A stretch of DNA of 51,987 nt from a phage, in the sequence record PZ715803.1; one strand, written 5' to 3'. Made by a program: the position numbers and the translations under genes. Under the pieces are notes generated by a model, which was given only the letters and a program-made list of their open reading frames with translations, ran no database searches and had not been told where the DNA came from. Positions 33 to 48,507 of this stretch are shown piece after piece. How positions within the stretch are numbered: the stretch's first letter is position 1; every line of letters starts with the position of its first letter.

Positions 33-485
33 TTAGAATGGTATATCATCGTCAAAGTCAATCGGAGGCTGATTGCTTTGCTGCGGCTGCTGTTGAGCGT
101 TTTGTTGCTGTTGCTGTTGTGGTTGCCCCCAGCCTCCTTGCGTTCGCTGCTGATATTGTTGCTGGCTTTCTCCGCGCTGGCTAAATAGCAGGTTTGCAAA
201 TCCGCCAGGCTGCACGGTGCTGTAAATCTTTCCGTTGTATTCTCGCGTTTCAACTCGCAATGTATCGCAGGAAACAGAAATAACCTTTCCTACCTGGAAA
301 GCCTCAGCATACCAACCATTCAGGCCGTCTGTTTTCGCGTTAAAGAAAAACACATAGTTTGTATACTGCCAATTTCCCTCTCGGTCTTTGTAGCGCTCGG
401 AAAGCTCAACAACATATAGCGTGCTGCCGTTAGGCATTTGCTTTACTTTTGGCTCTTTTCGAATCTCACCTGTAATAACGTGCAT
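33..485 (-). CDS. ssb: Single-stranded DNA-binding protein
   Basis: OB-fold-like N-terminus, Gln/Gly-rich linker, acidic C-terminal tail DFDDDIPF; start moved to ATG at 485 preceded by AGGAG. Confidence 0.9.
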   Translation of the reverse strand: MHVITGEIRKEPKVKQMPNGSTLYVVELSERYKDREGNWQYTNYVFFFNAKTDGLNGWYAEAFQVGKVISVSCDTLRVETREYNGKIYSTVQPGGFANLLFSQRGESQQQYQQRTQGGWGQPQQQQQQNAQQQPQQSNQPPIDFDDDIPF

Positions 486-507
486 TTTGTTTTCTCCTAT
501 GACAAAA

Positions 508-523
508 GGGGCGCAAGCGCCCC
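508..523 (-). terminator. Hairpin GGGGCGC-AA-GCGCCCC with T-run on minus strand between erf and ssb
   Basis: Inverted repeat followed by TTTTG on the transcribed (minus) strand. Confidence 0.45.
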
Positions 524-528
524 GTTTA

Positions 529-1185
<657 letters not shown>

Positions 1186-1258
1186 CTAATTCTCCTGTTA
1201 TCTGGTTGGCGAATTATATCACCAACCATTATAAAAGTTTAGCTATTTGCTTAGTTTG

Positions 1259-2314
1259 TTATAGATACTGCCTGAATTGAGCGCGCACCCAATCAGGAGT
1301 ATCAAGATCAATTTCTGGCTGCCCGTTTGCATACGAAGGCCATTCATCTAACTGTTGGCAAACGTTGAACTTGTTGATCACGCTCATGTACTGGATACGC
1401 CCAATCTTCAATTGCTCAATGTTCATGCGGAATGCGAGCGGCAAGTAAGGCTCTTTCTTCTCTTGAGCAAGCAATCTCACAATTACTGGCCTTTCCTCGT
1501 CTGGATAAGCCTTTTTGAATAAATCATGCTGCAAAGCCATTTTGAGATAATAGCCGTGATTGTAAGCCAGACGCTGGAAGTCAACCGGATTTGCGCTAAC
1601 CGTTGTTTTATAGTCAGTGATAATCACAGCTTCTGGATAGATGACTTCTTCATAAATCGGTCGGCCTTTTTCGTCGTAACCGTTAATGATTGTGGCCTTT
1701 ACATCCTTGTTTACGTCAACGTGATCAAGACGCACTTTAACTTTTACGCCATTGATGATCCCGAATATTGACATTTCACGCTGCGCGGTTGGGCTATTCA
1801 TGCAAGCATTATGCTCAGGTATTGCCTCAAGTACGCGCCGCATCGCTACACAGGCATCATAATCTTTCGCGTCGATTAACTGCACGCCGTCCGCTGCGGC
1901 CTGGCATTCTGCCATCATTTCGATAAGCCACCATACATTGAGATCCTCGCCGCACTTGTACAGCATTTCCAGCAATTCTGGATATTGCTTACCCGTTGTA
2001 CCTTTCAGGCCAAAAGATTTCAGCTTTGAGGCTAACGCCGTTTGACTTGTGATCAGATCTTTAAAATCATCCTGCGACGGTGCGCGGCGATATGTTTTTT
2101 CGAATAACTCCTTGCTTTCAAAATTGGTATGCGACTGCGTACCGAAAACAAGTGCCTTAGTTTCCTGGCGAGGCTTGTACTTCCAGTACGCCGGGCAAGT
2201 GCTGTAAATCTCCGCCAGGCTGGAACCGCTGACATATTCAGCCGTCCATGCGTTAGGATCATGATAAAGCTCGTTGCTCATTTCTTCGCTAGTGTAGGCG
2301 TTAAAATCACTCAT
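1259..2314 (-). CDS. PD-(D/E)XK-type 5'-3' exonuclease, recombination partner of ERF
   Basis: 351 aa; D...E-x-K-like segment (ITDYKTT); first gene of exo-erf-ssb operon. Confidence 0.7.
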   Translation of the reverse strand: MSDFNAYTSEEMSNELYHDPNAWTAEYVSGSSLAEIYSTCPAYWKYKPRQETKALVFGTQSHTNFESKELFEKTYRRAPSQDDFKDLITSQTALASKLKSFGLKGTTGKQYPELLEMLYKCGEDLNVWWLIEMMAECQAAADGVQLIDAKDYDACVAMRRVLEAIPEHNACMNSPTAQREMSIFGIINGVKVKVRLDHVDVNKDVKATIINGYDEKGRPIYEEVIYPEAVIITDYKTTVSANPVDFQRLAYNHGYYLKMALQHDLFKKAYPDEERPVIVRLLAQEKKEPYLPLAFRMNIEQLKIGRIQYMSVINKFNVCQQLDEWPSYANGQPEIDLDTPDWVRAQFRQYL

Positions 2315-2344: not shown

Positions 2345-2372
2345 ATTGTAGCCATTTGGTTGATTTAGTCAA
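2345..2372 (-). promoter_or_regulatory. Sigma70-like promoter for the exo-erf-ssb operon (TTGACT-16 bp-TACAAT on minus strand)
   Basis: Near-consensus hexamers with 16-bp spacer about 30 bp upstream of exo start codon. Confidence 0.5.
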
Positions 2373-2742
2373 TAGTTGTTTTGTTTTTTCTGTTTTCTAA
2401 ACGTTCTCAGATGGCAAGAAAACAAATCTGACACGTAAGTTAATGATTAACATGTGTTATTTTTCTTGTTCCCTTGTTCTCTCAGATACGCCGGATTATA
2501 TACATACACATGAATGATGGCACATGCAGATACTCAGAAAGAAAAATCACCACAAACAACCAAAACCACAAGAAACACAGATAACAAGAAAAAACAAATA
2601 TACATACATAAATAAATAAACTATTGATTTTATATGTATATATCTATTTTATTGATTGTTTATTGCTCTTATGTTGTCTAAAATTTGCGCTAAATTTACG
2701 CCGTCTTAAATTCGATAACGCTGGAAAACAAAAAATAACAAG

Positions 2743-2784
2743 TAGCACTTTTTGCTAAACTCGGCTTGCCGGATCGTGTATAGT
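2743..2784 (+). promoter_or_regulatory. Variant copy of the 19-bp element (TAGCACTTTTTGCTAAA) followed 21 bp later by TATAGT; promoter of the lipoprotein cassette
   Basis: Same architecture as the element copies upstream of early genes; CAACAACAA leader then AGGAG RBS. Confidence 0.45.
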
Positions 2785-7586: not shown

Positions 7587-7641
7587 GACTTTTAACCTTT
7601 TGTGCTGTTTCTTGGTTTGAACATTATAAAGGCACAAAAAA

Positions 7642-9735: not shown

Positions 9736-9774
9736 TTTCTACCTCCTTTTTGCTCATTGTAACATCAATAAAAA

Positions 9775-12872: not shown

Positions 12873-13506
12873 TATGTTTTGTTTGAATGAATCATTTCTA
12901 GCGCCTTTTGTTCCATGATGCGCAAATCATTTAGCGCCATCTCCCGATCCTCAATCTTGTAAATGTCAAAAAGCATAGGCAAAACGTTATAGTCGAACCC
13001 ATACACACTGCCGCTAGTCGATCTCCATTGCGTTTGCATTGCGCAAAACAGATCCCAAGATTGAAACATTGATTCATCAAAAATTACCTCCGGCGGCTCC
13101 TCCCCTTCGTAGTCTGAACGGGATAGGCCGACGGCCTCTAGTTGTGCGTCAGTTGGCGGCTTGAGGTAAAACAGGTAAACCGCCCGCTTTAGTTTTTTAC
13201 CCGCTGCCCCGCAAGTGCTTTCATATAATGACCAGTCAGCGATAATGACGCAGAAGGGTAATAATCCAGCAATTTAGCAACGTTTTCCTCGTTAAATTCA
13301 TCTTCCAGATCCCAACCGGAAGCAAGAAAGGTGATCATTTCTACGTCGCTCATCGGCTTTTCTGCCGTGTATCGTTCGTGAATCTCGCTTGCCTTCTTGT
13401 GGCGCACGGTAAAAACAATAACTTGCTCATCACCATTTGGAAGCACGAAAGAAACAGGTAGCTTAAAATCAGGCAGTGGGCCTAACGTTAGTTTCATCTT
13501 TGCCAT
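12872..13506 (-). CDS. Tail assembly chaperone G-T fusion made by programmed -1 frameshift at about 13192-13198
   Basis: Slippery heptamer A AAA AAC in register immediately before the G stop; -1 frame stays open for 106 codons into ORF 12872..13069. Confidence 0.6.
13189..13506 (-). CDS. Tail assembly chaperone (lambda G-like, zero-frame product)
   Basis: 105 aa between major tail and tape measure genes; ends at slippery site. Confidence 0.75.
   Translation of the reverse strand: MAKMKLTLGPLPDFKLPVSFVLPNGDEQVIVFTVRHKKASEIHERYTAEKPMSDVEMITFLASGWDLEDEFNEENVAKLLDYYPSASLSLTGHYMKALAGQRVKN
13192..13198 (-). other. Slippery heptamer AAAAAAC (X XXY YYZ) for -1 ribosomal frameshift
   Basis: Zero-frame codons GTA AAA AAC TAA read directly from the minus strand. 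Confidence 0.6.
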
Positions 13507-13520: not shown

Positions 13521-13539
13521 ATAGCACTTTTTGTTAAAA
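13521..13539 (+). promoter_or_regulatory. 19-bp element copy (ATAGCACTTTTTGTTAAAA), antisense to the late operon; abuts the RBS of the G chaperone gene
   Basis: Exact consensus; followed on plus strand by TTGATT repeats and TAGATT. Confidence 0.5.
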
Positions 13540-17271: not shown

Positions 17272-17290
17272 ATAGCACTTTTTGTTAAAC
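17272..17290 (+). promoter_or_regulatory. 19-bp element copy (ATAGCACTTTTTGTTAAAC), antisense orientation upstream of the major capsid gene
   Basis: 18/19 match to consensus. Confidence 0.5.
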
Positions 17291-21885: not shown

Positions 21886-21912
21886 GATTATATAACTTTT
21901 TAGCAATTAGTG

Positions 21913-23481
21913 CTATTTATTGCGTAGACCTGCCAGCTTTTTCATCCTTGCTACCGGATCATCTGCCAAATTCATTTCGACGTTAACAGCATCAACTATA
22001 TTATCGACAATATCATCATGGGGATGAGAATCATCAAAAGTGAATGCTGCAACCTCTGCCAGTATCTCAGGCAGCATGGGATGATTTTCTGGCAGTGCCA
22101 CACGTCCGGCCCTCATTACTGGCGCGGCGTCCATTGCTCGCGTCACCTTGTCATTGCTTCGCTGAACGGGATTTATATCAATCGGGATCTTCTTTTTGGC
22201 CCCCTGAATCAAACCCGTGCCGCTGGCCTTATCCTCAATGTGGATACGTCGCAAGCTGCCACACTCCTTATTGCGCTTCCAGCACTGGTTAACGAAGGCA
22301 ATAAAATTTAATTCAAGATCCGGCGCTTCCCACTTTCCGCGAATGCCATCAATGAAGTAAACGCGATTCTTATACATCCCCCAATAACAAAAAACCGAAT
22401 AGTCGTTAAGCTCTCCGGCCTTCTGCGCGGTATCTCCAGTAATAAATGTGTATTCAAAGCGATCCGGTTTTGGTAGTGCGCACTTTTCGCCGCTGCCGTA
22501 ATACTGGAACCACTCTGTTTTAAACACGTTCCCGCCAAGCGCGATTGGTTGCTGTTGGTATTGGCTGGCGAACGTGTAAGGATCTGCATTGCGCAATGCA
22601 AGCAACTCCTCCGCGCTTTCCTTCGCAGGCCAAAATGAATAATGAGCGACGCCATCTATCATCACTGGCTTACTTGACAGCACATCACGATCAAATTCAG
22701 GCTTCAACCAATCAGGAAGCGTTTCGCGGTATTCTTTCGTAACCAGCGCCGGAATGCTCACGACTTTAAACTCAATACCACCCATCCCGCCATTAAGCAT
22801 GAACCAGGTGGAATCATTAACGTGTAGTCGCTGTTGCACCATAACAATTGGCGTGGTGTCTTTCATTCGACGCGATCGCACTGTGTTTTTTAACCTCATG
22901 TGAATAGCCTCGCGCTTGACCTTAGAAAGCATATCATCCGGCTTGTCTGGATCGTCAAGAACCAGCATACCAGTAAAACCATCATCCATATAGCCGCCAC
23001 GCAAACCTGTTACCTGGCCGCCAATAGAACGTGAGTTGACTTGCAATTTAACCTTGCCGCCTTCGGTGACTATCAGATCTTTAGCGCTCGCCTTTGCCAG
23101 TTTTCCAGGCCATAGCTCTTGCCACTCAGGAGAACCGATAATCTCCTTTATCCGGTTGCTGTTTTGCTGGACAAGGCCATCACTAAACGAAAGGTTAAGG
23201 TTTCTCACTTTCCGGCTTTTCAATGACGCGTAGGGTGACATGTGGATCGAGAAAATCTCAGTCTTGCCGCTACCTGGCGTAATGTTGAAAATCACATTCT
23301 GCGACTCTCCATTGATGATCTTCTCTACCTCACTGCACAATAAGCTAAAATGCCAGTTGCTCTGGAATTTTTGCCCCTGCAATAATTGGAACCAGATTCT
23401 GATCATCTTTTCGAATGAATGCTCACTGATTTCTTTAATGGCTCGCTTTTGCGCCGCCGTCAAATCTTCCCATATGATCAT
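21913..23481 (-). CDS. Terminase large subunit
   Basis: 522 aa; ATPase Walker A (TPGSGKTE) and Walker B-like VLDDPD; start overlaps TerS stop. Confidence 0.9.
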   Translation of the reverse strand: MIIWEDLTAAQKRAIKEISEHSFEKMIRIWFQLLQGQKFQSNWHFSLLCSEVEKIINGESQNVIFNITPGSGKTEIFSIHMSPYASLKSRKVRNLNLSFSDGLVQQNSNRIKEIIGSPEWQELWPGKLAKASAKDLIVTEGGKVKLQVNSRSIGGQVTGLRGGYMDDGFTGMLVLDDPDKPDDMLSKVKREAIHMRLKNTVRSRRMKDTTPIVMVQQRLHVNDSTWFMLNGGMGGIEFKVVSIPALVTKEYRETLPDWLKPEFDRDVLSSKPVMIDGVAHYSFWPAKESAEELLALRNADPYTFASQYQQQPIALGGNVFKTEWFQYYGSGEKCALPKPDRFEYTFITGDTAQKAGELNDYSVFCYWGMYKNRVYFIDGIRGKWEAPDLELNFIAFVNQCWKRNKECGSLRRIHIEDKASGTGLIQGAKKKIPIDINPVQRSNDKVTRAMDAAPVMRAGRVALPENHPMLPEILAEVAAFTFDDSHPHDDIVDNIVDAVNVEMNLADDPVARMKKLAGLRNK

Positions 23482-24036: not shown

Positions 24037-24045
24037 ATTATACCA
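24037..24045 (-). promoter_or_regulatory. Extended -10 promoter element (TGgTATAAT) upstream of terS
   Basis: Consensus TATAAT preceded by TG at -15/-14, about 25 bp upstream of terS start, just downstream of a hairpin. Confidence 0.35.
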
Positions 24046-26110: not shown

Positions 26111-26129
26111 TTTTAACAAAAAGTGCTAT
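26111..26129 (-). promoter_or_regulatory. 19-bp element copy, then 22 bp, then TAAAGT; promoter module for 25841..26053 and downstream genes
   Basis: Exact consensus on minus strand abutting the stop codon of 26129..26416. Confidence 0.55.
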
Positions 26130-27375: not shown

Positions 27376-27445
27376 TGTGATTTCCTCTTGATTGTTGATG
27401 TGAGCATTATAGCGGGGCCGATAACCCCGCGTTTAGCAATTCGTG

Positions 27446-28036
27446 CTATTTAATCTGTGTGTGCTTCCATTTGACAGTATTGACGATCTCGTTTACAGCC
27501 AGCTCCGGCTTGCCGTCCTGCAAGTGGAAATCATAGTGGTGGATTCGATAGTGATAACCGCTCAGGTCAATGTAGTCTCTCGAATCGCCAGCAAACGTGA
27601 AGCCGTCGCGATGCAATCGGCAAATATGCACTTCATGCCCTGCCTTAACCAGCGGCTTGATTTCTTCGGGGAATCCGCCATCACTGATCACAACCGCCAA
27701 ATCTCGGTACATCTCGTGAATCTCTTCAACCATTCGACGCCCGAAATAGTGATCTCCAAAAACTGGCTTCATTACATCCTCGCTAATCCAGATCATGAAT
27801 TGTCGAGGTGACTTGCCGCCTAAGATAACTTGAGGCTTTTCTTTTTGTTCTCGGTCGTTGTACAGGTCCATAAATTCATCGTATCTGTACACGCCCAGCA
27901 TGGAAAACGCAATATCGAACATCGGCTGTTTGAATGACGCCTTAACCGCTGGGTAACGATGGCCCGTTAGGTAAGCTGCAATAGTGTCCTTTCCACAACC
28001 AGGCGGCCCATTAAGGATAATAATGTCTCGCTTCAT
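27446..28036 (-). CDS. P-loop kinase (polynucleotide kinase-like)
   Basis: Walker A GPPGCGKDT at N-terminus; 196 aa. Confidence 0.75.
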   Translation of the reverse strand: MKRDIIILNGPPGCGKDTIAAYLTGHRYPAVKASFKQPMFDIAFSMLGVYRYDEFMDLYNDREQKEKPQVILGGKSPRQFMIWISEDVMKPVFGDHYFGRRMVEEIHEMYRDLAVVISDGGFPEEIKPLVKAGHEVHICRLHRDGFTFAGDSRDYIDLSGYHYRIHHYDFHLQDGKPELAVNEIVNTVKWKHTQIK

Positions 28037-28932: not shown

Positions 28933-28951
28933 TTTTAACAAAAAGTGCTAT
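28933..28951 (-). promoter_or_regulatory. 19-bp element copy, then 22 bp containing a hairpin, then TATAGT
   Basis: Exact consensus; last base overlaps the phosphatase stop codon. Confidence 0.55.
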
Positions 28952-30192: not shown

Positions 30193-30246
30193 CGTTTTAT
30201 CTCCTTCGTTGAAAGTGAGGCCATTATACCTGGCCCCACATTTGAG

Positions 30247-30265
30247 TTTTAACAAAAAGTGCTAT
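30247..30265 (-). promoter_or_regulatory. 19-bp element copy, then 21 bp, then TATAAT
   Basis: Exact consensus element and consensus -10 hexamer. Confidence 0.6.
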
Positions 30266-30414: not shown

Positions 30415-30490
30415 CTCTCACCTCAATAAAAGCTAAACAGGTAGGCAAACAATCCGATCCATGCGGCGACGTGCGCCGCAGTGAGCAAAC

Positions 30491-31384: not shown

Positions 31385-31463
31385 GGTGCTTTCTCCTGAT
31401 TGGTTTTGTGGGCGACGCCGTGCCGCCCTATGTGATTTATTATGCCTGGTTATCGCTTTCGAG

Positions 31464-31482
31464 TTTTAACAAAAAGTGCTAT
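31464..31482 (-). promoter_or_regulatory. 19-bp element copy, then 22 bp, then CATAAT
   Basis: Exact consensus; directly downstream of the stop of 31483..31668. Confidence 0.55.
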
Positions 31483-31668
31483 TTAGAATTTTACCTCTTC
31501 CACAAGCTCAACCATCTTGTAACCAAGACGATAAGAGTCACCGAACAACAAGATCCCCATAAATTCATCGTGGCTTATTGACTCTTTGCCAACCGTTCTA
31601 AGCTCTCCGTTGTGAATCACAGTATCGCCGATCTTGATTTCTGATTTATGGACTAATTTCGTTTTCAT
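31483..31668 (-). CDS. Hypothetical protein
   Basis: 61 aa. Confidence 0.55.
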   Translation of the reverse strand: MKTKLVHKSEIKIGDTVIHNGELRTVGKESISHDEFMGILLFGDSYRLGYKMVELVEEVKF

Positions 31669-31683
31669 TTATTCACCCGCTAA

Positions 31684-31869
31684 TTAAAAGAAAGCTACAT
31701 AGTTTGCAATGCCTTTTGCGTCGTCGTTTGGCATTGCTTTTACAGCCAGGTCATAACCCGCCTCTACCTTCTGCTTTGCTGTTTCTTCGTTGTAGCCCCA
31801 GATAACCAGGATTTTAACTACGTTTTCTTTGTTCAGGACTTTAAGGTCTTTGGTGATGCGACGTGCCAT
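31684..31869 (-). CDS. Hypothetical protein
   Basis: 61 aa; element promoter with hairpin and CATCGAAAC leader upstream. Confidence 0.6.
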   Translation of the reverse strand: MARRITKDLKVLNKENVVKILVIWGYNEETAKQKVEAGYDLAVKAMPNDDAKGIANYVAFF

Positions 31870-31926
31870 TTTTGTTTCCTCAATCTCGTTTCGATGAGGC
31901 TATTATGCCAGGCTTTGCGCCTGGCG

Positions 31927-31945
31927 TTTTAACAAAAAGTGCTAT
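31927..31945 (-). promoter_or_regulatory. 19-bp element copy, then 22 bp containing hairpin GCCAGGC..GCCTGGC, then CATAAT
   Basis: Exact consensus; stop codon of the upstream lipoprotein gene embedded in the element. Confidence 0.55.
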
Positions 31946-32202
31946 TTAATATCTGTTGTGACTTGCTGGTGCATTACGTTCTTTCCGCTGTTGTACGTGC
32001 TATCCGTTGCGCCTTTGCAATTGGTGTAATAGATCGCGCGACCGTTATCATAGAATCTGTATGCTGTGCATCCGTCAACAGTGAACAGGCGACCGACTTT
32101 GAAATCTGACTCCACGCCTACGACAACCGTTGATTCTGATGCCTTTTCGCATCCGGTCAGGAGTGTCATTGCCGCCAAAACGCCGATTAATGCCTTTTTC
32201 AT
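31942..32202 (-). CDS. Lipoprotein (second predicted lipoprotein; candidate receptor-masking / superinfection-exclusion protein)
   Basis: Signal peptide with lipobox LTGC; two additional Cys. Confidence 0.7.
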   Translation of the reverse strand: MKKALIGVLAAMTLLTGCEKASESTVVVGVESDFKVGRLFTVDGCTAYRFYDNGRAIYYTNCKGATDSTYNSGKNVMHQQVTTDIK

Positions 32203-32666
32203 TATTGCTCCTCCTCTTTGATGATTTCGCGGATCATATCCTGGTAGCGGCTTACGCCCTCACAAGCTCCAGCCAGTTTATCCCCTTCCAGGTCCACGAT
32301 GTTCGGGATTGCTGCCAGTAAGCGATCGGCAAACTTTTTGATCGCCCTTGCCTTGATGGCTGGCAATTCTTCGGGTGTGATGATTTTCCTTTTCGATTCG
32401 CGCACCATGCGGAAAACGTAAAATTTATCATCTTCCGTTTCCTCGACCTTGATACTTACCCGACCTGCGGCCCTTACTTCTGGAACGCGGTTGATAATGG
32501 TCCGGCTGTAGGATGAACTGCGCGTGATCTTGTAGCAGTCGTCACCGCTTAACATTCCGGCCAGGTCAATTAGTGACATTTTATACTCTTCAATATCGCC
32601 ACTAGCCAGGCGGCGACCAAGCTCGCGAAGCCAATCGCAATAGTCCTTAGTGGTCTTCTGTTCCAT
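32202..32666 (-). CDS. Hypothetical early protein (first gene of leftward early operon)
   Basis: ATG 32666 with GGAGG RBS downstream of a near-consensus sigma70 promoter. Confidence 0.65.
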   Translation of the reverse strand: MEQKTTKDYCDWLRELGRRLASGDIEEYKMSLIDLAGMLSGDDCYKITRSSSYSRTIINRVPEVRAAGRVSIKVEETEDDKFYVFRMVRESKRKIITPEELPAIKARAIKKFADRLLAAIPNIVDLEGDKLAGACEGVSRYQDMIREIIKEEEQ

Positions 32667-32697
32667 TTCCTTTCCTCCAGTTGTTGACTGTTGGCGC

Positions 32698-32725
32698 ATT
32701 ATAAAAGCTATTTGGTGCGTGTCAA
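32698..32725 (-). promoter_or_regulatory. Near-consensus sigma70 promoter (TTGACA-16 bp-TATAAT) for the leftward early operon
   Basis: Both hexamers consensus, read on minus strand about 30 bp upstream of the first early gene. Confidence 0.55.
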
Positions 32726-33159
32726 TGTTTTTGTTGTATTCAAAACGTTACCAATATCGAAAAACTACAAAATCATGCGCAAGTTATTGATTTCGCGGCT
32801 GTTATTTTTCTGTTCACGCTGTTAACGCAATCCGCCGGAAAAAGTATATATACATATGCAATCCGCCGCGCGCGCAACTATCCATATATGCCCACACACA
32901 ACCACACCATAACCAACAAAAAGCACTGTAACAGTGAGAACAAAAAGAAAACATTATAGATATATATAAATAAATAATCTTTATTTTCAATGTATTATAG
33001 AGGGATTTTTTTGTTTTTTCCGTTTTCGCTACACCGGAAAACCGCGCGGAAACATGCCGCCTGAAATCGGTAACAGGGGTGAACAAAAGACAACAACCAC
33101 TGACAGCCAGGCAAAAAAGTGAGGCAAGAGGGGAAGGTTTCACTATCTCCCCTGCAACC

Positions 33160-33250
33160 AATGATTAAACGTGATTGCTTTTCTCATCAAATTTGCAAAG
33201 GCAATCATCATTTTGACGTGATTTGATTACGAATGATTACTTTTGATTAT
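33160..33250 (+). repeat. Cluster of TGATT(A) direct repeats at 10-11 bp phasing (iteron-like)
   Basis: TGATTAC, TGATTAC, TGATTAT at about 33224, 33234, 33244, plus TGATTA/TGATTG at about 33160-33180. Confidence 0.45.
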
Positions 33251-33280
33251 TTCTATCGCAATCCTGGCGCTAACCGTCAA

Positions 33281-33299
33281 ATAGCACTTTTTGTTAAAA
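33281..33299 (+). promoter_or_regulatory. 19-bp element copy, then 22 bp, then TACATT; promoter of the rightward early operon
   Basis: Exact consensus; CATCGAAAC leader and GGAGA RBS follow. Confidence 0.55.
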
Positions 33300-33358
33300 C
33301 TCAGGCCACCTGATCGGGTACATTGCACACATCGAAACGAACCGCTCAGGAGATAGCA

Positions 33359-33631
33359 ATGAACATCAGCAAAACCACTTTCAATTTCGCCAAGCGTCAC
33401 GGTCTGGATCTGACTGTTGAAGATTTTGGCGATGTTCTGCAACTCTGCATTTGGGAAGCAGATAACGATTGCGAGTGGCTTTGCTCTTATCGCATCAACT
33501 ACGATTGCTTGACCTGGCACGGCAATATCTATCTGCCGCAAGAAGTGAAAGAAGAATTGCCAGCGACTATCAACAACGAGGTTTTCTTGCGTCAGGTGCT
33601 GAAATTTATCAGTGAGGAGATCAAGAAGTAA
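33359..33631 (+). CDS. Hypothetical protein
   Basis: ATG 33359 with GGAGA RBS (ORF-track start 33323 is upstream). Confidence 0.6.
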   Translation: MNISKTTFNFAKRHGLDLTVEDFGDVLQLCIWEADNDCEWLCSYRINYDCLTWHGNIYLPQEVKEELPATINNEVFLRQVLKFISEEIKK

Positions 33632-33897
33632 TGGCGGTGATTACCGAAAATGATTTGGATCTGGCGGAGGCGTTTTGCAGGGCCGCCAGGGCTAACCTGG
33701 ATGTGATGACTAAATTTCTTCCGGCGCGCACACTCTTTTCATGTGCGCCCGTGAATAAACCGACTCGCGTGATGATCGTGATTGAAGGTGATGGCCTGTA
33801 CGCTGAAAAGACGTTCCACATCAGCAACATTAAGGGCCGTGCTGATTTTATCAATGATGTTTGCTTATTGCAGGAGAAGAAAAAATGTTGGATGTGA
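33631..33897 (+). CDS. Hypothetical protein (shares F-INxVC motif with next gene)
   Basis: 88 aa; start overlaps upstream stop. Confidence 0.6.
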   Translation: MAVITENDLDLAEAFCRAARANLDVMTKFLPARTLFSCAPVNKPTRVMIVIEGDGLYAEKTFHISNIKGRADFINDVCLLQEKKKCWM

Positions 33898-34094
33898 TCA
33901 AGAAAGCACATGAGATGGGTATGGATGTTTCAATCAGTGATGCGCAACGCTATAACCGCTCAATGCCTGAAAACATGGTTGTAGTCATCGTGCATAATCA
34001 TAAGTTTGAATGCCGCGCAATTCTTGAGCGTGACAACAAAGGGGCGCAAAGCAATTTTATCAACGAAGTCTGTGATCTGTATGGGCGTATCTGA
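33885..34094 (+). CDS. Hypothetical protein (paralog-like to 33631..33897)
   Basis: ATG 33885 with AGGAGA RBS. Confidence 0.55.
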   Translation: MLDVIKKAHEMGMDVSISDAQRYNRSMPENMVVVIVHNHKFECRAILERDNKGAQSNFINEVCDLYGRI

Positions 34095-34095
34095 A

Positions 34096-34308
34096 ATGTT
34101 CAAGAAATTGTTATGGCTGTACCGCTCCAGGCGCAACAAGGGATATTGCAGGGGCACGGAAAGGAATCTTGACCGCGCTTATAAATACTGCCTGTTATTG
34201 CTCGCCAGGATGCCGGAAAACAGGAAGGAATATATTGCACTGCGGGAAATAACAATGCGGATATATAGTTACCGCAATAAACTATACGTCTTTAAATCTT
34301 TACGATAA
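34096..34308 (+). CDS. Small Arg-rich basic protein (uncertain)
   Basis: ATG 2 nt after upstream stop; no clear RBS; fills the gap to 34321. Confidence 0.3.
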   Translation: MFKKLLWLYRSRRNKGYCRGTERNLDRAYKYCLLLLARMPENRKEYIALREITMRIYSYRNKLYVFKSLR

Positions 34309-34320
34309 GGAGTAATAACC

Positions 34321-34584
34321 ATGAAAATTAATGCACCTATTCCAGTTAAGCGCAAAGCACGTTTGCTCAACAACGGATGTTACGCCCTGCGGCCTGCATT
34401 TAAGGATCGCACATTTCCGGTTATCGTTAACGTGTCTCACGTAAGCCGTAGCGGGAATATGGTATTCGTTAAAGGTGAAGATCTGACGGCGCTTGGATTC
34501 TATGGCGGTGTTCACGGCGAACCGCTCGGATTCTGGCTTGTAGATCTGTTAACTGGAGAGCGTGAAATCGAATTCTTGGACTAA
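34321..34584 (+). CDS. Hypothetical protein
   Basis: AAGGAG RBS; 87 aa. Confidence 0.7.
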   Translation: MKINAPIPVKRKARLLNNGCYALRPAFKDRTFPVIVNVSHVSRSGNMVFVKGEDLTALGFYGGVHGEPLGFWLVDLLTGEREIEFLD

Positions 34585-34603
34585 ATAGCACTTTTTGTTA
34601 AAA
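34585..34603 (+). promoter_or_regulatory. 19-bp element copy, then 22 bp, then TACATT
   Basis: Exact consensus immediately after the stop codon of 34321..34584. Confidence 0.55.
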
Positions 34604-34661
34604 CTCAATCCTCGTATTCCTGTACATTACACGCATCGACAACGAATGCGAGGATTTGAAA

Positions 34662-34814: not shown

Positions 34815-35094
34815 GTTTTACAGCTACACCGACACAGTTGATTTTGAGGGGATACAATTGCCCCTCCCAAATATATACCGCTATATCACTCGTGACGAGC
34901 GCGGATTTATTGAAGCCTGGCGCGCTAAGCCAGTGCGGGATCTTGAATTTGGCGGCTTCCGTTCGCTTGAAGGTGAATTGCCGATCTGCTTTGGTCATCA
35001 AAGCGGTGAAAGCCTTCCTGTTGTTGCGCGTAAGTATCGCCGCCACAAGATCACAAGGCAACTTATCTCTTTAACTGGAAAAGTTGTTGAATAG
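34804..35094 (+). CDS. Hypothetical protein
   Basis: ATG 34804 with GGAG RBS. Confidence 0.55.
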   Translation: MSSKFYSYTDTVDFEGIQLPLPNIYRYITRDERGFIEAWRAKPVRDLEFGGFRSLEGELPICFGHQSGESLPVVARKYRRHKITRQLISLTGKVVE

Positions 35095-35109
35095 CACTTT
35101 TTGTTAAAA
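35091..35109 (+). promoter_or_regulatory. 19-bp element copy, then 22 bp, then TGgTATATT (extended -10-like)
   Basis: Exact consensus; stop codon TAG of the upstream gene inside the element. Confidence 0.55.
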
Positions 35110-35165
35110 ACGATGTGCGCCTGAATGGTATATTACACCCATCGACAACAAGAGAGGATTTAAAG

Positions 35166-36582: not shown

Positions 36583-37293
36583 ATGTATAAAGGTTTAATA
36601 TTCTCCCTATTTGATGGATCTGGCAAAGCCGTTAAAGATTGGGCTGATAATGGCTATAAGTGCATTTGCTTTAATGCTGACGGTGGCGATCACGGTGATT
36701 ACCAGTCAGTGCGCATACAGCATGAGAATATCGAATACGTTAACGTCTGGATTGATGAAAGATTTTACCACCGCGCGCGCTGGGAGGAATGGGGCATTCC
36801 TGACTTTATTATGGCATTTCCGCCGTGCACCGACCTTGCAAATAGCGGATCTCGCCATTGGGCCAAAAAACGCCTTGAGAATCCATCGTTCCAGGATGAG
36901 GCCGCCGACACTTGCAGAATCGCGGCTGATATAGCTGATTATTTCGGTGTTCCTTACATGATCGAAAATCCGGTTGGCAAGTTGTCAACGTTATGGCGAA
37001 AGCCTGATTATACGTTCCATCCGTGCGATTACGCTGGCTATCTGCCGGAAGATGATAAACATCCCGACTTCCCTGATATTATTCCGGCACGGGATCGCTA
37101 TTTTAAGAAAACGTGCCTCTGGACTGGCAACGGCTTTGTTATTCCTCCGCGCGCTTTAATCCTGCCGAAAGAGGAAGACAAAGATAATCCAGGCTGGGCC
37201 AAAACTGGCGGTAAGTCATCGCGCACAAAGATGATCCGCTCCCTCACTCCGCGCGGATTTGCTCGCGCCGTCTTTGAGTCAAACTCAAAATAG
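36583..37293 (+). CDS. Putative DNA (cytosine-5)-methyltransferase-like protein
   Basis: FDGSGK (motif I-like), FPPC (catalytic Pro-Cys, motif IV-like), ENPVG (motif VI-like); ATG 36583 with GAGGT RBS. Confidence 0.5.
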   Translation: MYKGLIFSLFDGSGKAVKDWADNGYKCICFNADGGDHGDYQSVRIQHENIEYVNVWIDERFYHRARWEEWGIPDFIMAFPPCTDLANSGSRHWAKKRLENPSFQDEAADTCRIAADIADYFGVPYMIENPVGKLSTLWRKPDYTFHPCDYAGYLPEDDKHPDFPDIIPARDRYFKKTCLWTGNGFVIPPRALILPKEEDKDNPGWAKTGGKSSRTKMIRSLTPRGFARAVFESNSK

Positions 37294-37308
37294 CACTTTT
37301 TGTTAAAA
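37290..37308 (+). promoter_or_regulatory. 19-bp element copy, then 22 bp containing hairpin GCCAGG..CCTGGC, then CATAAT
   Basis: Exact consensus with stop codon TAG of the MTase gene embedded. Confidence 0.55.
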
Positions 37309-37749: not shown

Positions 37750-37967
37750 TAAACAGTGAAAACCGTTACAAAGTAACGCATTCTACCACAAAGACTTTCA
37801 AGCCTGGCGATATAGTCAGGCCCATCAAAAAAACGGCGGTAGGTTGGCTGATTGGTTTTTCATATCATAAGGCGCTTTACTTTACGTTTAAGGATGGGAT
37901 TACAGGAGAATGCTACAGCGACCGCCAGCCTGATCGACTTCTGGTTGCAATAGAGCGGATCAAATAG
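37746..37967 (+). CDS. Hypothetical protein
   Basis: 73 aa; overlapping start. Confidence 0.6.
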   Translation: MINSENRYKVTHSTTKTFKPGDIVRPIKKTAVGWLIGFSYHKALYFTFKDGITGECYSDRQPDRLLVAIERIK

Positions 37968-37982
37968 CACTTTTTGACAAAA
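37964..37982 (+). promoter_or_regulatory. Element variant with TTGACA (ATAGCACTTTTTGACAAAA), then 22 bp, then TAAAAT
   Basis: Single T-to-C change creates a consensus -35-like hexamer. Confidence 0.5.
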
Positions 37983-40125: not shown

Positions 40126-40144
40126 ATAGCATTTTTTGTTAAAA
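40126..40144 (+). promoter_or_regulatory. Element variant (ATAGCATTTTTTGTTAAAA), then 22 bp hairpin, then TATATT; left arm of a 45-bp inverted repeat with the copy at 43369-43387
   Basis: About 30 bp identical to the reverse complement of 43343-43387. Confidence 0.55.
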
Positions 40145-43368: not shown

Positions 43369-43387
43369 TTTTAACAAAAAGTGCTAT
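43369..43387 (-). promoter_or_regulatory. 19-bp element copy, then hairpin, then CATAAT; right arm of the 45-bp inverted repeat; candidate promoter of the lysis-containing operon
   Basis: Exact consensus; stop codon of 43387..43644 abuts the element. Confidence 0.55.
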
Positions 43388-44438: not shown

Positions 44439-44457
44439 TTTTAACAAAAAGTGCTAT
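44439..44457 (-). promoter_or_regulatory. 19-bp element copy, then 22 bp, then CATAAT; promoter module upstream of dam
   Basis: Exact consensus immediately after the VRR-NUC stop. Confidence 0.55.
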
Positions 44458-46870: not shown

Positions 46871-46926
46871 CTTAAACCTTTAAAAAATGCCATTTGGAGT
46901 ATATAATAGACTCATTACAATAAACT

Positions 46927-46945
46927 GTTTTAACAAAAAATGCTA
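46927..46945 (-). promoter_or_regulatory. Element variant (ATAGCATTTTTTGTTAAAA), then 22 bp, then TATTAT; promoter of the helicase operon; also abuts the RBS of the divergent gene at 46958
   Basis: 18/19 match; located in the divergent intergenic region. Confidence 0.5.
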
Positions 46946-46957
46946 TGAGGTGACTAG

Positions 46958-47434
46958 ATGAAAGATGCACGAATTGCAGTGTCTACGGGTGAGATCGACA
47001 AGCGCACTATTAACGGTAACAACGGAACGCGACGAGGTAAAGACAAAAAGCCACGAAAACACCGAACCGGATTTCTTATCCTGCGAGATGAGGTAAAAGC
47101 AAGCCTGAAATCTCGCCTTGACATTCTGATCGAGTATTACGGCGGCGTTCCTGCTATGGCTCGACGTCTGCGCGTATCTCAGCAAGTCGTTAACCAGTGG
47201 CGAAAGCGTGGTATGATTTCAGCCGCTGGAGCACAAAAGGTGCATAACGACTACAAATATAATGGATGCAAAGGATACCGCGCCTCGTTTTGTCGTCCAG
47301 ATCTGCGGTTTGATTCTAACGGCAAGCCTCTTACTACCCGTTGCGACAAATACGAAATGTTGCGCGTAGTCAAAAATTCAGACTACGAACCAGGCGGACG
47401 ATTCTACAAAGGTGATAACAGCACGAATAGCTAA
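46958..47434 (+). CDS. Helix-turn-helix DNA-binding protein
   Basis: Cro/CI-like HTH segment (MARRLRVSQQVVNQWRKRG); GAGGTGA RBS. Confidence 0.65.
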   Translation: MKDARIAVSTGEIDKRTINGNNGTRRGKDKKPRKHRTGFLILRDEVKASLKSRLDILIEYYGGVPAMARRLRVSQQVVNQWRKRGMISAAGAQKVHNDYKYNGCKGYRASFCRPDLRFDSNGKPLTTRCDKYEMLRVVKNSDYEPGGRFYKGDNSTNS

Positions 47435-48459: not shown

Positions 48460-48490
48460 GCATTTGAAAATGCTATTATCTGCATTGTCA

Positions 48491-48507
48491 TTAGCAAAAA
48501 GTGCTAT
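48491..48507 (-). promoter_or_regulatory. Element variant (TTAGCAAAAAGTGCTAT on plus), inverted relative to and abutting the RBS of the tail fibre gene
   Basis: Core GTGCTATTTA shared with copies at 21892 and 27428. Confidence 0.45.

What the first reader, a model, noticed from the sequence alone, without database searches (positions are those of the whole stretch)
32698..32725. Canonical sigma70 promoters only at the two leftward early operons, element-type modules everywhere else
Near-consensus TTGACA/TTGACT and TATAAT/TACAAT with 16-bp spacers are found only upstream of 32202..32666 (32698-32725) and of the exo-erf-ssb operon (2345-2372). These probably define the immediate-early units read by unmodified host polymerase. 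All other transcription units use the 19-bp element architecture, and terS is preceded by an extended -10 (TGgTATAAT, about 24037-24045) without a -35. This implies at least three promoter classes, with one or more genes of the 24087-32666 block acting as regulators.
Basis: partly seen in the sequence, partly recalled or inferred. Interest (0 to 1): 0.5.

Follow-up and report, generated by a model that had tools for sequence, protein, structure and literature searches.

The report
T1-like phage promoters: sigma70 and marbox types
The two flagged sites are real, ordinary strong host-type promoters of a T1-like coliphage. The repeated 19-bp element at most other promoters matches the E. coli MarA/SoxS/Rob binding site (marbox) in sequence, orientation and position, so this phage family may run most of its transcription through a host stress-response activator.

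Summary
The window is a T1-like (Drexlerviridae, Warwickvirus) coliphage genome. Both flagged promoters exist exactly as described: TTGACA-16-TATAAT at 32725..32698 and TTGACT-16-TACAAT at 2372..2345, minus strand. Promoters at the same gene positions are conserved across diverged relatives.

"Only" is wrong. At least two more element-free sigma70-type promoters exist, at +46879..46907 (Cro-like regulator and primase) and -584..555 (ssb). All four carry CCAAATRGC in the spacer, and that 9-mer occurs nowhere else in the window. It may be a repressor operator.

The general layout was already published for phage TLS: three intergenic sigma70 promoters plus about 20 copies of aaATAGCACnnnTTGnTAAAA, function unknown.

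What appears new is the identity of the element. It matches the published marbox GCANNWWNTGNNAAA exactly (19 sites against 1.6 expected). It lies in forward orientation over the -35 region, a rigid 19 bp from a -10 hexamer. This is the class II geometry of E. coli micF.

The phages encode no AraC-family protein, so host MarA/SoxS/Rob is the most likely partner. This is untested.

Late genes instead use a terminator followed by a -35-less -10. There the element sits over or just downstream of the promoter, as an operator would.

Three architectural promoter classes are supported. A phage-encoded regulator is not required.

The parts
32698..32725 (-). Element-free sigma70 promoter, TTGACA-16-TATAAT (12/12), of the DUF7174 gene
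   Evidence: TTGACA plus a near-consensus -10 is conserved upstream of DUF7174 homologues in diverged relatives and in FritzSarasin.
32726..32745 (-). A-rich tract (gaatacaacaaaaaca) directly upstream of the -35; resembles a proximal UP element
   Evidence: Comparable A-rich tracts precede the orthologous TTGACA in L003, L006 and L007. The UP-element reading is an inference.
32202..32666 (-). DUF7174 gene (154 aa), first gene behind the consensus promoter
2345..2372 (-). Element-free sigma70 promoter, TTGACT-16-TACAAT (10/12), of the exo-erf-ssb operon
   Evidence: Orthologous promoters in T1 (30319) and TLS (P51, 29110).
33..2314 (-). exo (1259-2314, PDDEXK), erf (529-1182) and ssb-like (33-485) genes
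   Evidence: Pfam; FritzSarasin annotation.
555..584 (-). Internal sigma70-type promoter, TTGACA-18-TAAAAT (11/12), in the 3' end of erf and upstream of ssb. A terminator hairpin follows at 523-508.
   Evidence: Conserved in FritzSarasin.
1213..1221 (-). Extended -10, TGaTATAAT, between exo and erf. It is preceded at 18 bp by a degenerate element (ACTAAGCAAATAGCTAAAC).
   Evidence: T1 has a comparable degenerate element plus TATAAT at 31443.
46879..46907 (+). Element-free sigma70-type promoter, TTTAAA-17-TATAAT, of the regulator-primase operon.
   Evidence: Orthologues: TLS P57 TTGACT-17-TATCAT, T1 36511 TTGAAT-17-TATAAT, Rtp TTGTCT-17-TACAAT.
46958..47434 (+). Cro/YdaS-like HTH regulator (158 aa) with an invariant basic N-terminal arm. 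Core gene of Drexlerviridae and candidate repressor of the element-free promoters.
   Evidence: Pfam; 99 homologue clusters; 825 phage records; AF2 pLDDT 85 and Foldseek top hits Xfaso-1 Cro and N15 Cro.
32707..32715 (-). CCAAATAGC motif in the spacer of the DUF7174 promoter
   Evidence: This is one of exactly four occurrences of CCAAATRGC in the window, all in spacers of element-free promoters.
2351..2359 (-). CCAAATGGC motif in the spacer of the exo promoter
568..576 (-). CCAAATGGC motif in the spacer of the ssb promoter
46889..46897 (-). CCAAATGGC motif in the spacer of the regulator promoter, inside the 11-bp palindrome AAATGCCATTT (46885-46895)
   Evidence: The palindrome is shared with TLS P57.
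2742..2760 (+). Marbox-type element (GTAGCACTTTTTGCTAAAC), then 18 bp, then TATAGT; promoter of genes 2810-3979
26111..26129 (-). Marbox-type element, then 19 bp, then TAAAGT
27431..27449 (-). Marbox-type element of the 'GAA' type (ATAGCACGAATTGCTAAAC), then 19 bp, then TATAAT
28933..28951 (-). Marbox-type element, then 19 bp, then TATAGT
30247..30265 (-). Marbox-type element, then 18 bp, then TATAAT
31464..31482 (-). Marbox-type element, then 19 bp, then CATAAT
31927..31945 (-). Marbox-type element, then 19 bp, then CATAAT. First element promoter downstream of the DUF7174 and DUF4884-like genes.
33281..33299 (+). Marbox-type element, then 19 bp, then TACATT. Rightward promoter, divergent from the DUF7174 promoter.
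34585..34603 (+). Marbox-type element, then 19 bp, then TACATT
35091..35109 (+). Marbox-type element, then 19 bp, then TATATT
37290..37308 (+). Marbox-type element, then 19 bp, then CATAAT
37964..37982 (+). Marbox-type element (ATAGCACTTTTTGACAAAA), then 19 bp, then TAAAAT
40126..40144 (+). Marbox-type element, then 19 bp, then TATATT
43369..43387 (-). Marbox-type element, then 19 bp, then CATAAT
44439..44457 (-). Marbox-type element, then 19 bp, then CATAAT
46928..46946 (-). Marbox-type element, then 19 bp, then TATTAT (46908-46903); helicase operon promoter. Its -10 overlaps the -10 of the rightward regulator promoter by 5 bp.
24037..24045 (-). Extended -10, TGgTATAAT, of terS with no -35, directly downstream of the terminator at 24081-24064
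   Evidence: A terminator followed about 22 nt later by TATAAT or TAAAAT is conserved in TLS, T1, Rtp and Vc1, with the TG present in 3 of 5.
9756..9764 (-). TGtTACAAT just after the terminator at 9794-9773; late (tail) module
7623..7628 (-). TATAAT after the terminator at 7658-7642, upstream of the J-like tail tip gene
   Evidence: Conserved in T1 (TATAAT) and TLS (TACAAT).
7590..7608 (-). Forward element copy (ACAGCACAAAAGGTTAAAA) at about +8..+26 of the J promoter, abutting the start codon. Not in activating position.
   Evidence: Conserved in T1 and TLS (DR8).
17272..17290 (+). Reverse-oriented element. It fills the 16-bp spacer of the leftward major-capsid promoter, TTGCAC (17296-17291)-16-(TGc)TATCAT (17274-17269).
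   Evidence: Conserved in T1 (TTGACG-16-TATTAT), TLS and Vc1.
13521..13539 (+). Reverse-oriented element abutting the ribosome-binding site of the tape-measure chaperone gene (13506..13189)
   Evidence: Conserved in T1.
21898..21916 (-). Forward element (ATAGCACTAATTGCTAAAA) that ends 5 nt before TATAAT (21892-21887), upstream of the portal gene. Not at class II distance.
48489..48507 (-). Reverse-oriented element at about +4..+22 of the lateral tail fibre promoter (TGcTATTAT, 48471-48479, after the terminator at 48434-48451)
   Evidence: A reverse element next to the ribosome-binding site is conserved in T1 and Rtp.

Best explanation
The window is a T1-like (Drexlerviridae) genome with three promoter architectures.

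(1) Three to four activator-independent sigma70 promoters. They have a consensus or near-consensus -35 and -10, a 16-18 bp spacer and an A-rich upstream tract. They drive DUF7174, exo-erf-ssb, ssb alone, and the Cro-like regulator with primase. The two flagged sites belong to this class. Host holoenzyme can most likely read them unaided, so they are the best candidates for the first transcripts (inferred). All four share CCAAATRGC in the spacer. I infer this is an operator through which a phage repressor shuts them off together. The autoregulated Cro-like regulator is the most plausible candidate.

(2) Sixteen promoters in which the 19-bp element replaces a good -35. The element is a consensus marbox, the asymmetric site bound by the monomeric AraC-family activators MarA, SoxS, Rob and RamA. 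It lies in forward orientation over the -35 region, a rigid 19 bp from the -10, which is the class II geometry of E. coli micF. I infer that these promoters need a marbox-binding activator that contacts sigma region 4 and alpha-CTD. Because the phages encode no such protein, the host's MarA/SoxS/Rob is the most likely partner.

(3) Late structural genes use a terminator followed by a -35-less, often extended, -10. There the same element lies over the spacer or in the first 5-45 transcribed bases, where a bound protein would repress. This suggests one factor that activates early and middle units and holds late units back.

SHOWN: the sequences, the geometry, the conservation, and the absence of a phage AraC homologue. 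INFERRED: who binds the element, and the timing.
For: SIGMA70 PROMOTERS. TTGACA plus a near-consensus -10 is kept upstream of DUF7174 homologues at 38-59% protein identity, while the spacer sequence changes. Orthologous promoters exist in T1, TLS and Rtp at the same three gene positions.

CCAAATRGC MOTIF. It occurs exactly four times in the window, every time in the spacer of an element-free promoter. FritzSarasin shows the same four sites.

MARBOX SEQUENCE. The published definition is 5'-GCANNWWNTGNNAAA-3', with class II meaning forward orientation, overlapping the -35 and centred at -36 to -55 (PMC12052159). The window has 19 exact matches against 1.6 in dinucleotide shuffles.

MARBOX GEOMETRY. 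In MG1655 micF the 15-mer ends 20 nt before the -10 and is centred at -41 (RamA-micF site at about -41 in PMC8811837). In the phage promoters the 15-mer ends 20 nt before the -10 in most copies and 19 nt in two.

MARBOX IDENTITY. The phage 20-mer is 15/20 identical to the micF marbox and 16/20 to the mar marbox.

SPACING ACROSS THE FAMILY. Of 504 distinct element contexts from Drexlerviridae loci, 344 have a 5/6-or-better -10 at a gap of exactly 19 nt.

VARIATION AMONG COPIES. The least conserved positions are 8, 9, 10 and 14. Positions 9-10 are 93-95% A/T and position 14 is 91% C/T. These are the N/W/Y positions of the marbox.

NO PHAGE ARAC-FAMILY PROTEIN. Pfam found none among 63 proteins. 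phmmer and hmmsearch with MarA, SoxS and Rob against six-frame ORFs of five phages gave nothing better than E=0.34.

LATE MODULES. Element copies in non-activating positions are conserved across subfamilies.
Against: No binding or transcription data exist for any of these sites. TSS positions are predicted from the -10 hexamers.

Rob is said to be largely sequestered, and MarA and SoxS scarce, in unstressed cells (from memory). It is therefore unclear whether the host supply would suffice for about 16 promoters per genome.

Positions 11-12 (TT) and 1-3 (ATA) are more conserved in the phages than the marbox consensus requires. This could reflect a different, phage-specific binder.

The Cro-like regulator is as universal in the family as the element is, so co-conservation cannot exclude it.

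A phage annotated as infecting Vibrio cholerae carries the same element. I did not check whether that host has a marbox-binding protein.

CCAAATRGC is genus-specific. It is absent from T1 and Rtp promoters, so the operator idea rests on two closely related genomes plus one TLS site.
Confidence: 0.55

Rival explanations
1. The element promoters are recognised by a phage-encoded activator made from the immediate-early consensus promoter. The candidate is DUF7174, the first gene of the 24087-32666 block. This would give an obligatory early-to-middle cascade in the manner of T4 MotA.
Confidence: 0.17
2. The family-wide Cro-like HTH regulator (46958-47434), with its invariant basic N-terminal arm, is the protein that binds the 19-bp element, whether as activator or repressor.
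For: The regulator and the element are both universal in Drexlerviridae. The N-terminal segment DKRxxNGNNGxxRGxDxxxRK is nearly invariant. Its gene starts next to a marbox promoter, and the two -10 hexamers overlap.
Against: The protein has a single Cro-type HTH. Such proteins usually bind palindromes as dimers, and the element is asymmetric. The predicted recognition helix varies between clades (QVVNQW, AALHEW, RLTNAY), while the element does not vary. Its own promoter carries a clade-specific palindrome (AAATGCCATTT here and in TLS), which is a better fit for its operator.
Confidence: 0.12
3. The element is only a strong activator-independent promoter module, an UP-like tract plus an unusual -35, read directly by sigma70 holoenzyme. 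The resemblance to a marbox is incidental.
For: The TLS authors raised UP-element-like function as one option. The element contains a T-tract and ends in TTAAAA. The consensus scan reads this as a -35 for the one copy with an 18-bp gap.
Against: With the dominant 19-bp gap, TTAAAA is 19 bp from the -10, which is too far. At 17 bp the hexamer is AAAACn, only 3/6, the same as in activator-dependent micF. The best-conserved block, ATAGCAC, is G/C-containing and lies at about -49 to -43, unlike the A/T-only UP consensus (established knowledge). This model does not explain copies in reverse orientation or inside 5' UTRs of late genes.
Confidence: 0.1
4. The element is mainly a repressor or 'stoperator'-type site, or a decoy that titrates host MarA/SoxS/Rob away from their regulon. 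It is not a positive promoter element.
For: The TLS paper suggested stoperators. Five copies lie over or downstream of late promoters. About 20 high-affinity sites per genome, multiplied by replication, would titrate a scarce factor (inference).
Against: 68% of 504 element contexts have a -10 at exactly 19 bp, and the elements sit 72-78 nt before start codons. This is the signature of a promoter component. A pure decoy or roadblock would not need fixed spacing to a -10.
Confidence: 0.06

Closest known systems
Phage TLS: 'three intergenic sigma70-like promoters' plus 18-21 copies of the 21-nt direct repeat aaATAGCACnnnTTGnTAAAA (German, Kropinski et al. 2024, PMC11447400)
   Same: Same family (Tempevirinae) and the same repeat, oriented with transcription about 76 nt upstream of start codons. 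The three sigma70 promoters (P01, P51, P57) lie at the same three gene positions as window 32725, 2372 and 46879.
   Different: The authors left the function open (stoperator, enhancer site or UP element) and did not connect the repeat to the marbox. They did not describe the fixed 19-bp distance to a -10, the shared spacer motif of the sigma70 promoters, or the non-activating copies at late promoters.
E. coli class II marbox promoters of the MarA/SoxS/Rob (RamA) regulon, e.g. micF, fumC, lpxC P2
   Same: The element matches the consensus GCANNWWNTGNNAAA (the RE1 GCAC and RE2 AAA halves). It is in forward orientation, overlaps a weak -35 (AAAACn), is centred at about -40, and has the same distance to the -10 as micF. 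It is 15-16/20 identical to the micF and mar marboxes.
   Different: Host marboxes are degenerate and occur about once per promoter. The phage carries about 20 near-perfect copies in 52 kb. Binding and activation by MarA, SoxS or Rob are untested. Phage positions 1-3 and 11-12 are more constrained than in the host consensus.
Phage T4 middle promoters (MotA box with the AsiA co-activator)
   Same: They work alike in outline. A good -10 is paired with a conserved activator box that replaces the -35, and the class follows host-type early promoters.
   Different: T4 encodes its own activator and sigma-appropriation factor. No MotA or AsiA homologue is present here. The MotA box is centred at about -30 and lies 11-13 bp from the -10 (from memory), whereas this box is centred at about -40 and lies 19 bp from the -10.
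Strong early sigma70 promoters of virulent coliphages (T7 A1-A3, T5 PN25 and similar)
   Same: Near-consensus hexamers with an A-rich upstream tract, placed at the start of early operons and read by unmodified host RNA polymerase (established knowledge).
   Different: Here there are few such promoters (3-4), and they carry a shared 9-bp spacer motif that suggests co-ordinated repression.
Extended -10 (TGn) promoters that lack a -35
   Same: terS (TGgTATAAT), erf (TGaTATAAT), a tail module (TGtTACAAT) and the tail fibre gene (TGcTATTAT) fit the definition.
   Different: They sit directly after intrinsic terminators, and several are followed or overlapped by a marbox-type element. This arrangement is not a described feature of the class.

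Membership tests
sigma70 (housekeeping) promoter, activator-independent | -35 hexamer close to TTGACA and -10 hexamer close to TATAAT | tested here: met
   32725: 12/12. 2372: 10/12. 584: 11/12. 46879: 10/12.
sigma70 (housekeeping) promoter, activator-independent | Spacer of 17 +/- 1 bp | tested here: met
   Spacers are 16, 16, 18 and 17 bp.
sigma70 (housekeeping) promoter, activator-independent | More than chance would give | tested here: inconclusive
   A 12/12 match occurs in 4.5% of shuffles, and 10/12 matches are at chance level. Significance comes from position, orthologous conservation and the shared spacer motif.
sigma70 (housekeeping) promoter, activator-independent | Transcription start about 7 nt downstream of the -10, and activity with holoenzyme alone | not testable with these tools
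   Needs 5'-end mapping and in vitro transcription.
Class II marbox promoter (MarA/SoxS/Rob regulon) | Match to the marbox consensus 5'-GCANNWWNTGNNAAA-3' (PMC12052159) | tested here: met
   19 exact matches against 1.6 in shuffles. The element is 15/20 identical to the micF marbox and 16/20 to the mar marbox.
Class II marbox promoter (MarA/SoxS/Rob regulon) | Forward orientation, overlapping the -35, centred between -36 and -55 | tested here: met
   16 copies in the window are forward, with the 15-mer ending 19-20 nt before the -10. The centre is at about -40 from the predicted TSS, against -41 in micF. 344 of 504 family-wide contexts have the -10 at the same gap.
Class II marbox promoter (MarA/SoxS/Rob regulon) | Variation among sites confined to the degenerate positions of the consensus | tested here: met
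   Positions 8, 9, 10 and 14 vary most. Positions 9-10 stay A/T and position 14 stays C/T.
Class II marbox promoter (MarA/SoxS/Rob regulon) | Bound by MarA, SoxS or Rob, with transcription dependent on them | not testable with these tools
No paper in the library links the marbox or Rob with T1-like phages.
TLS-type 21-nt direct repeats of Drexlerviridae | Sequence aaATAGCACnnnTTGnTAAAA, in the direction of transcription, about 76 nt upstream of start codons | tested here: met
   distances are 68-98 nt, mostly 72-78. The exceptions are the five late-region copies.
T4 MotA/AsiA-type middle promoters | Phage-encoded activator (MotA) and anti-sigma co-activator (AsiA) | tested here: not met
   No such Pfam family was found among 63 phage proteins. 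The box position also differs.
Phage-encoded AraC/XylS (MarA-like) activator system | A phage protein with the HTH_18 / AraC double helix-turn-helix | tested here: not met
   Pfam found none. phmmer and hmmsearch with MG1655 MarA, SoxS and Rob against six-frame ORFs of the window, T1, Rtp, TLS and Vc1 gave a best E of 0.34. The one clear HTH protein has a single Cro-type motif.
Extended -10 promoter | TGn immediately upstream of a good -10, with no -35 needed | tested here: met
   TGgTATAAT lies at 24045..24037 with no -35. The -10 is conserved in five genomes and the TG in three.

The most novel reading that the evidence does not exclude
Drexlerviridae run their whole transcription programme through the host's MarA/SoxS/Rob stress activators. 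About 16 class II marbox promoters switch on early and middle genes. The same box, placed over or just downstream of the -35-less late promoters (major capsid, J, tail fibre, tape-measure chaperone, portal), holds late genes off. The factor is then lost in one of two ways: it decays after host shut-off (MarA and SoxS are Lon-labile, from memory), or thousands of replicated phage marboxes titrate it. That loss would flip the early-to-late switch. Phage growth would then be coupled to the host's antibiotic and oxidative stress state.
Probability: 0.2. Interest if true: 0.85.

Novelty: new variant of a known kind. Interest (0 to 1): 0.6.

Why it matters
How T1-like phages order their gene expression has never been worked out. 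They encode no RNA polymerase and no sigma factor. The function of their conserved repeat, present about 20 times per genome, was still listed as unknown in 2024.

If the repeat is a class II marbox, a whole family of common virulent enterobacterial phages depends on, or at least engages, the MarA/SoxS/Rob regulators. These are the same proteins that drive multidrug resistance (the mar phenotype). That would link phage productivity to host stress and resistance state, which matters for phage therapy against mar-derepressed clinical strains.

It would also give a simple candidate mechanism for temporal control, and a set of about 20 natural near-consensus marboxes for studying these activators.

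The question is directly testable with existing strains and proteins.

By contrast, the two flagged consensus promoters are ordinary and were expected from the TLS annotation.

Tried and rejected
RFAM. A search of the whole window at gathering threshold gave no hit, so the large intergenic regions are no known RNA family.

THE CRO-LIKE REGULATOR AS A HIDDEN DOUBLE-HTH PROTEIN. The AF2 model shows a single Cro-type HTH.

A PHAGE ARAC HOMOLOGUE. Pfam found none among 63 proteins. Direct phmmer and hmmsearch with MG1655 MarA, SoxS and Rob found none.

SIGMA54. I considered the resemblance of TAGCAC-N3-TTGC to TGGCAC-N5-TTGC and rejected it. The spacing is 2 bp too short, and a sigma70-type -10 follows at a fixed distance.

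REVERSE COPIES AS CLASS I MARBOXES. I considered this for the late-region copies and rejected it, because a TSS 56-85 bp downstream would fall inside the coding sequences.

CCAAATRGC AS A FAMILY-WIDE OPERATOR. It is not found in T1 or Rtp promoters, so it is genus-level only.

fumC AS A SECOND GEOMETRY STANDARD. The marbox was found (ATGGCACGAAAGACCAAAC), but the -10 is ambiguous, so I did not use it for spacing.

LITERATURE. I found no time-resolved transcriptome of a T1-like phage and no paper linking the marbox, MarA or Rob to these phages. The exact 20-bp consensus AYnGCACnnWnnRYYAAAYn is quoted from memory, because it was not retrievable in the library.
Full report
IDENTITY OF THE WINDOW. 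The 6-kb stretch 30000-36000 is 98% identical to Escherichia phage vB_EcoS-95, and 92-97% of it aligns to phages such as tonijn and FritzSarasin at about 97-98% identity. These are Drexlerviridae, Tempevirinae, genus Warwickvirus. The gene order matches phages T1, TLS and Rtp, in reverse orientation. From left to right it reads: ssb-erf-exo leftward (33-2314); three small genes rightward; the structural genes from tail tip to terS leftward (4008-24008); a block of small genes leftward (24087-32666); a block of small genes, a Dcm-like methylase and a helicase rightward (33323-40430); the lysis, Dam and helicase genes leftward (40445-46870); and the regulator, primase and lateral tail fibre rightward (46958-51986).

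THE OBSERVATION. The first is minus strand 32725..32698, TTGACA-16-TATAAT. The second is minus strand 2372..2345, TTGACT-16-TACAAT. Their -10 hexamers end 31 and 30 nt before the ATGs of a DUF7174 gene and of the exonuclease gene. The TGgTATAAT upstream of terS (24045..24037) is also real. It lies just after an intrinsic terminator and has no -35.

By hexamer matching alone the case is modest. A 12/12 site turns up in 4.5% of dinucleotide shuffles, and 10/12 sites are at chance level, 18 observed against 18.5 expected.

What makes them convincing is comparison with relatives. In IMG/VR T1-like contigs whose DUF7174 protein is only 38-59% identical, the gene is still preceded by an A-rich tract and TTGACA, then 16-17 bp, then TATAAT, AATAAT, TATGAT or TATTAT. 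The spacer sequence is not conserved. T1 and TLS both have TTGACT-16-TATAAT in front of their exonuclease genes.

"Only" is incorrect. A third element-free promoter, TTTAAA-17-TATAAT at +46879..46907, precedes the Cro-like regulator and primase. Its orthologues are TLS P57, T1 36511 and an Rtp site. A fourth, TTGACA-18-TAAAAT at -584..555, lies in the end of erf and upstream of ssb. A perfect extended -10, TGaTATAAT at 1221..1213, precedes erf.

The late region does not use the element architecture either. Its intergenic gaps hold a terminator hairpin and T-run followed at once by a -10-like hexamer.

A NEW FEATURE OF THE ELEMENT-FREE PROMOTERS. The 9-mer CCAAATRGC occurs exactly four times in the window, against roughly 0.8 expected from its information content. 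Each copy is inside the spacer of one of the four element-free promoters. FritzSarasin has the same four sites and no others. In the regulator's own promoter the motif is part of an 11-bp palindrome, AAATGCCATTT, which TLS P57 shares. T1 and Rtp lack the motif.

The regulator (46958-47434) has a disordered, nearly invariant basic N-terminal arm and a single Cro-type helix-turn-helix. Its Foldseek top hits are Xfaso-1 Cro and N15 Cro. I infer that CCAAATRGC is a clade-specific operator through which this autoregulated protein shuts off the element-free promoters together. This is an inference from position only.

PRIOR KNOWLEDGE. The 2024 re-annotation of phage TLS reports "only three intergenic sigma70-like promoters" and 18-21 copies of aaATAGCACnnnTTGnTAAAA. 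The repeats are oriented with transcription about 76 nt upstream of start codons. The paper suggests stoperators, enhancer sites or UP elements as possible functions, and notes unpublished sightings in T1, Rtp and Rogue1 (PMC11447400). TLS P01, P51 and P57 lie at the same three gene positions as the window's 32725, 2372 and 46879.

WHAT THE 19-BP ELEMENT IS: SEQUENCE. ATAGCACTTTTTGTTAAAA matches the marbox, the asymmetric site bound by the monomeric AraC-family activators MarA, SoxS and Rob (RamA in Klebsiella). The published working definition is 5'-GCANNWWNTGNNAAA-3'. Class II promoters carry it in forward orientation, overlapping the -35 and centred at -36 to -55 (PMC12052159; PMC8811837). 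The window has 19 exact matches against 1.6 in dinucleotide shuffles. Matches with one or two mismatches are not enriched.

GEOMETRY. In the MG1655 micF promoter the 15-mer GCACTGAATGTCAAA ends 20 nt before the -10 (TAGAAT) and is centred at -41. This promoter is class II and was solved in complex with RamA. In the window, 14 of the 16 promoter-competent copies have a 19-nt gap between the 19-mer and the -10, and two have 18 nt. The 15-mer therefore ends 20 or 19 nt before the -10 and is centred at about -40. At 17-bp spacing the -35 reads AAAACn, as in micF (AAAACA).

IDENTITY TO HOST MARBOXES. The phage 20-mer is 15/20 identical to the micF marbox. It is 16/20 identical to the marRAB marbox read in its own orientation.

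FAMILY-WIDE CHECKS. Of 504 distinct element contexts from about 130 Drexlerviridae loci, 344 have a 5/6-or-better -10 at a gap of exactly 19 nt, 19 at 18 nt and 10 at 20 nt. The positions that vary among copies are 8, 9, 10 and 14. Positions 9-10 remain A/T (93-95%) and position 14 remains C/T (91%). These are the degenerate positions of the marbox.

The element is present with the same layout in T1 (Tunavirinae), Rtp (Braunvirinae), TLS, Vc1 (Jhansiroadvirus) and diverged metagenomic relatives. The exact 19-mer is found almost only on contigs of 44-53 kb in IMG/VR.

WHO BINDS IT. No phage protein resembles MarA, SoxS or Rob. Pfam finds no AraC-type domain among 63 small and medium proteins. 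Searches with the MG1655 proteins against all six-frame ORFs of five phages give only noise, with a best E of 0.34.

DUF7174 has at best a generic winged-helix-like domain and diverges rapidly. The Cro-like regulator is universal, but it has a single helix-turn-helix whose recognition helix differs between clades, whereas the element does not differ.

An element that stays invariant while phage proteins drift to 40-50% identity is most simply explained by a conserved host partner. I therefore rank the options as follows: host MarA/SoxS/Rob-type activator at roughly 0.55; a phage-encoded binder at about 0.3 (DUF7174 0.17, regulator 0.12); an activator-independent module at about 0.1. None of this is shown experimentally. 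I found no paper connecting the marbox, MarA or Rob with T1-like phages.

THE LATE CLASS. Upstream of terS, five genomes from four subfamilies or genera share a terminator followed about 22 nt later by TATAAT or TAAAAT. The TG extension is present in three of them, and none has a -35. Similar modules precede the J-like tail tip gene, a tail module and the lateral tail fibre gene.

All five element copies in or next to structural genes are in non-activating positions:
- Major-capsid promoter: a reverse copy fills the 16-bp spacer of TTGCAC-16-(TGc)TATCAT. This is conserved as TTGACG-16-TATTAT in T1, and also in TLS and Vc1.
- J promoter: a forward copy lies at about +8..+26, conserved in T1 and TLS.
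- Tail fibre promoter: a reverse copy lies at about +4..+22, conserved in T1 and Rtp.
- Tape-measure chaperone gene: a reverse copy abuts the ribosome-binding site.
- Portal gene: a forward copy ends 5 nt before a TATAAT.

This pattern fits a dual regulator that activates from the class II position and represses when it sits on or after the core promoter. It suggests, speculatively, that loss or titration of the factor could time late expression.

VERDICT. The flagged promoters are real and conserved, but ordinary and already described in a sister genus. "Only two" is wrong, and "everything else uses the element" is wrong for the late genes. Three promoter architectures are supported. A regulator encoded in the 24087-32666 block is neither required nor supported. 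The added value is the identification of the family's enigmatic repeat as a consensus class II marbox, which turns an old open question into a simple set of experiments.

Noticed in passing
window 2373-2741 and 32726-33280: The two large divergent intergenic regions that hold the flagged promoters are paralogous, with about 70% identity over the aligned columns. They share an AACGTTTnGAAnACA...AAAAACA block upstream of the -35, A/C-rich runs and ATATACATA/AAATAAATAA stretches. There is no Rfam hit. T1 and Rtp have similar AT-rich tracts upstream of exo. Function unknown; an origin, a pac-related site or an upstream regulatory region are possibilities.
   Followed up: partly
window 7590-7608, 13521-13539, 17272-17290, 21898-21916, 48489-48507: Element copies in the structural-gene regions are never at class II distance. 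They lie in promoter spacers or 5' UTRs, in either orientation, and abut ribosome-binding sites. Their positions are conserved in T1, TLS, Rtp and Vc1. They look like operators or roadblocks rather than antisense promoters.
   Followed up: partly
window 17227-17296 and 21843-21892: At the major-capsid and portal genes, a terminator-like hairpin follows the -10 so closely that the predicted TSS falls at or inside the left arm of the stem. Transcripts arriving from upstream could terminate there, while locally initiated ones could not form the hairpin. At ssb (508-584) the promoter is followed by a complete terminator before the gene.
   Followed up: no
window 46879-46946: This is a back-to-back overlapping promoter pair. 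The -10 of the rightward regulator promoter (46902-46907) and the -10 of the leftward marbox-type helicase promoter (46908-46903) share 5 bp, so RNA polymerase binding should be mutually exclusive. The arrangement is conserved in T1, TLS and Rtp.
   Followed up: partly
window 40146-40164 and 43349-43367, plus other element-to-(-10) spacers: Many 19-bp spacers between the element and the -10 are G+C-rich hairpins. Two promoters share nearly the same hairpin (GCCCGGCCTAGTGTCGGG). They may double as terminators for the upstream unit. E. coli fumC likewise has its marbox directly after the fumA terminator (L141).
   Followed up: no
window 46958-47434: The Cro-like regulator has a nearly invariant, predicted-disordered N-terminal segment (DKRxxNGNNGxxRGxDxxxRK) across 35 diverse homologues, and a conserved Cys-containing C-terminal segment (GYRASFCRPDLRFDxNGK...RC). 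The function of both is unknown.
   Followed up: partly
window 41690-42886: A 398-aa protein upstream of the lysis genes, annotated 'DNA repair exonuclease' or 'phosphoesterase' in relatives, gives a weak sub-threshold Pfam hit to sigma70 region 4 at residues 44-68 (E=0.002).
   Followed up: no
window, small early genes (alignment A2): Two small proteins match Pfam PF25180, 'Phage antiviral trigger protein Gp54' (best E=3e-37). Several others match recently defined DUF families (DUF7421, DUF7444, DUF7180, DUF7299).
   Followed up: no
L016 (Vibrio phage Vc1, NC_054898.2) and L033 (174-kb IMG/VR contig): A Drexlerviridae phage annotated as infecting Vibrio cholerae carries the same marbox-type elements. 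One exact 19-mer also occurs on a 174-kb viral contig outside the usual 44-53 kb size class. Neither was examined further.
   Followed up: no
window 47418-47436: A degenerate element (ACAGCACGAATAGCTAATG), followed after 17 bp by GATAAT, lies at the end of the regulator gene just upstream of primase. It may be a weak internal promoter.
   Followed up: no
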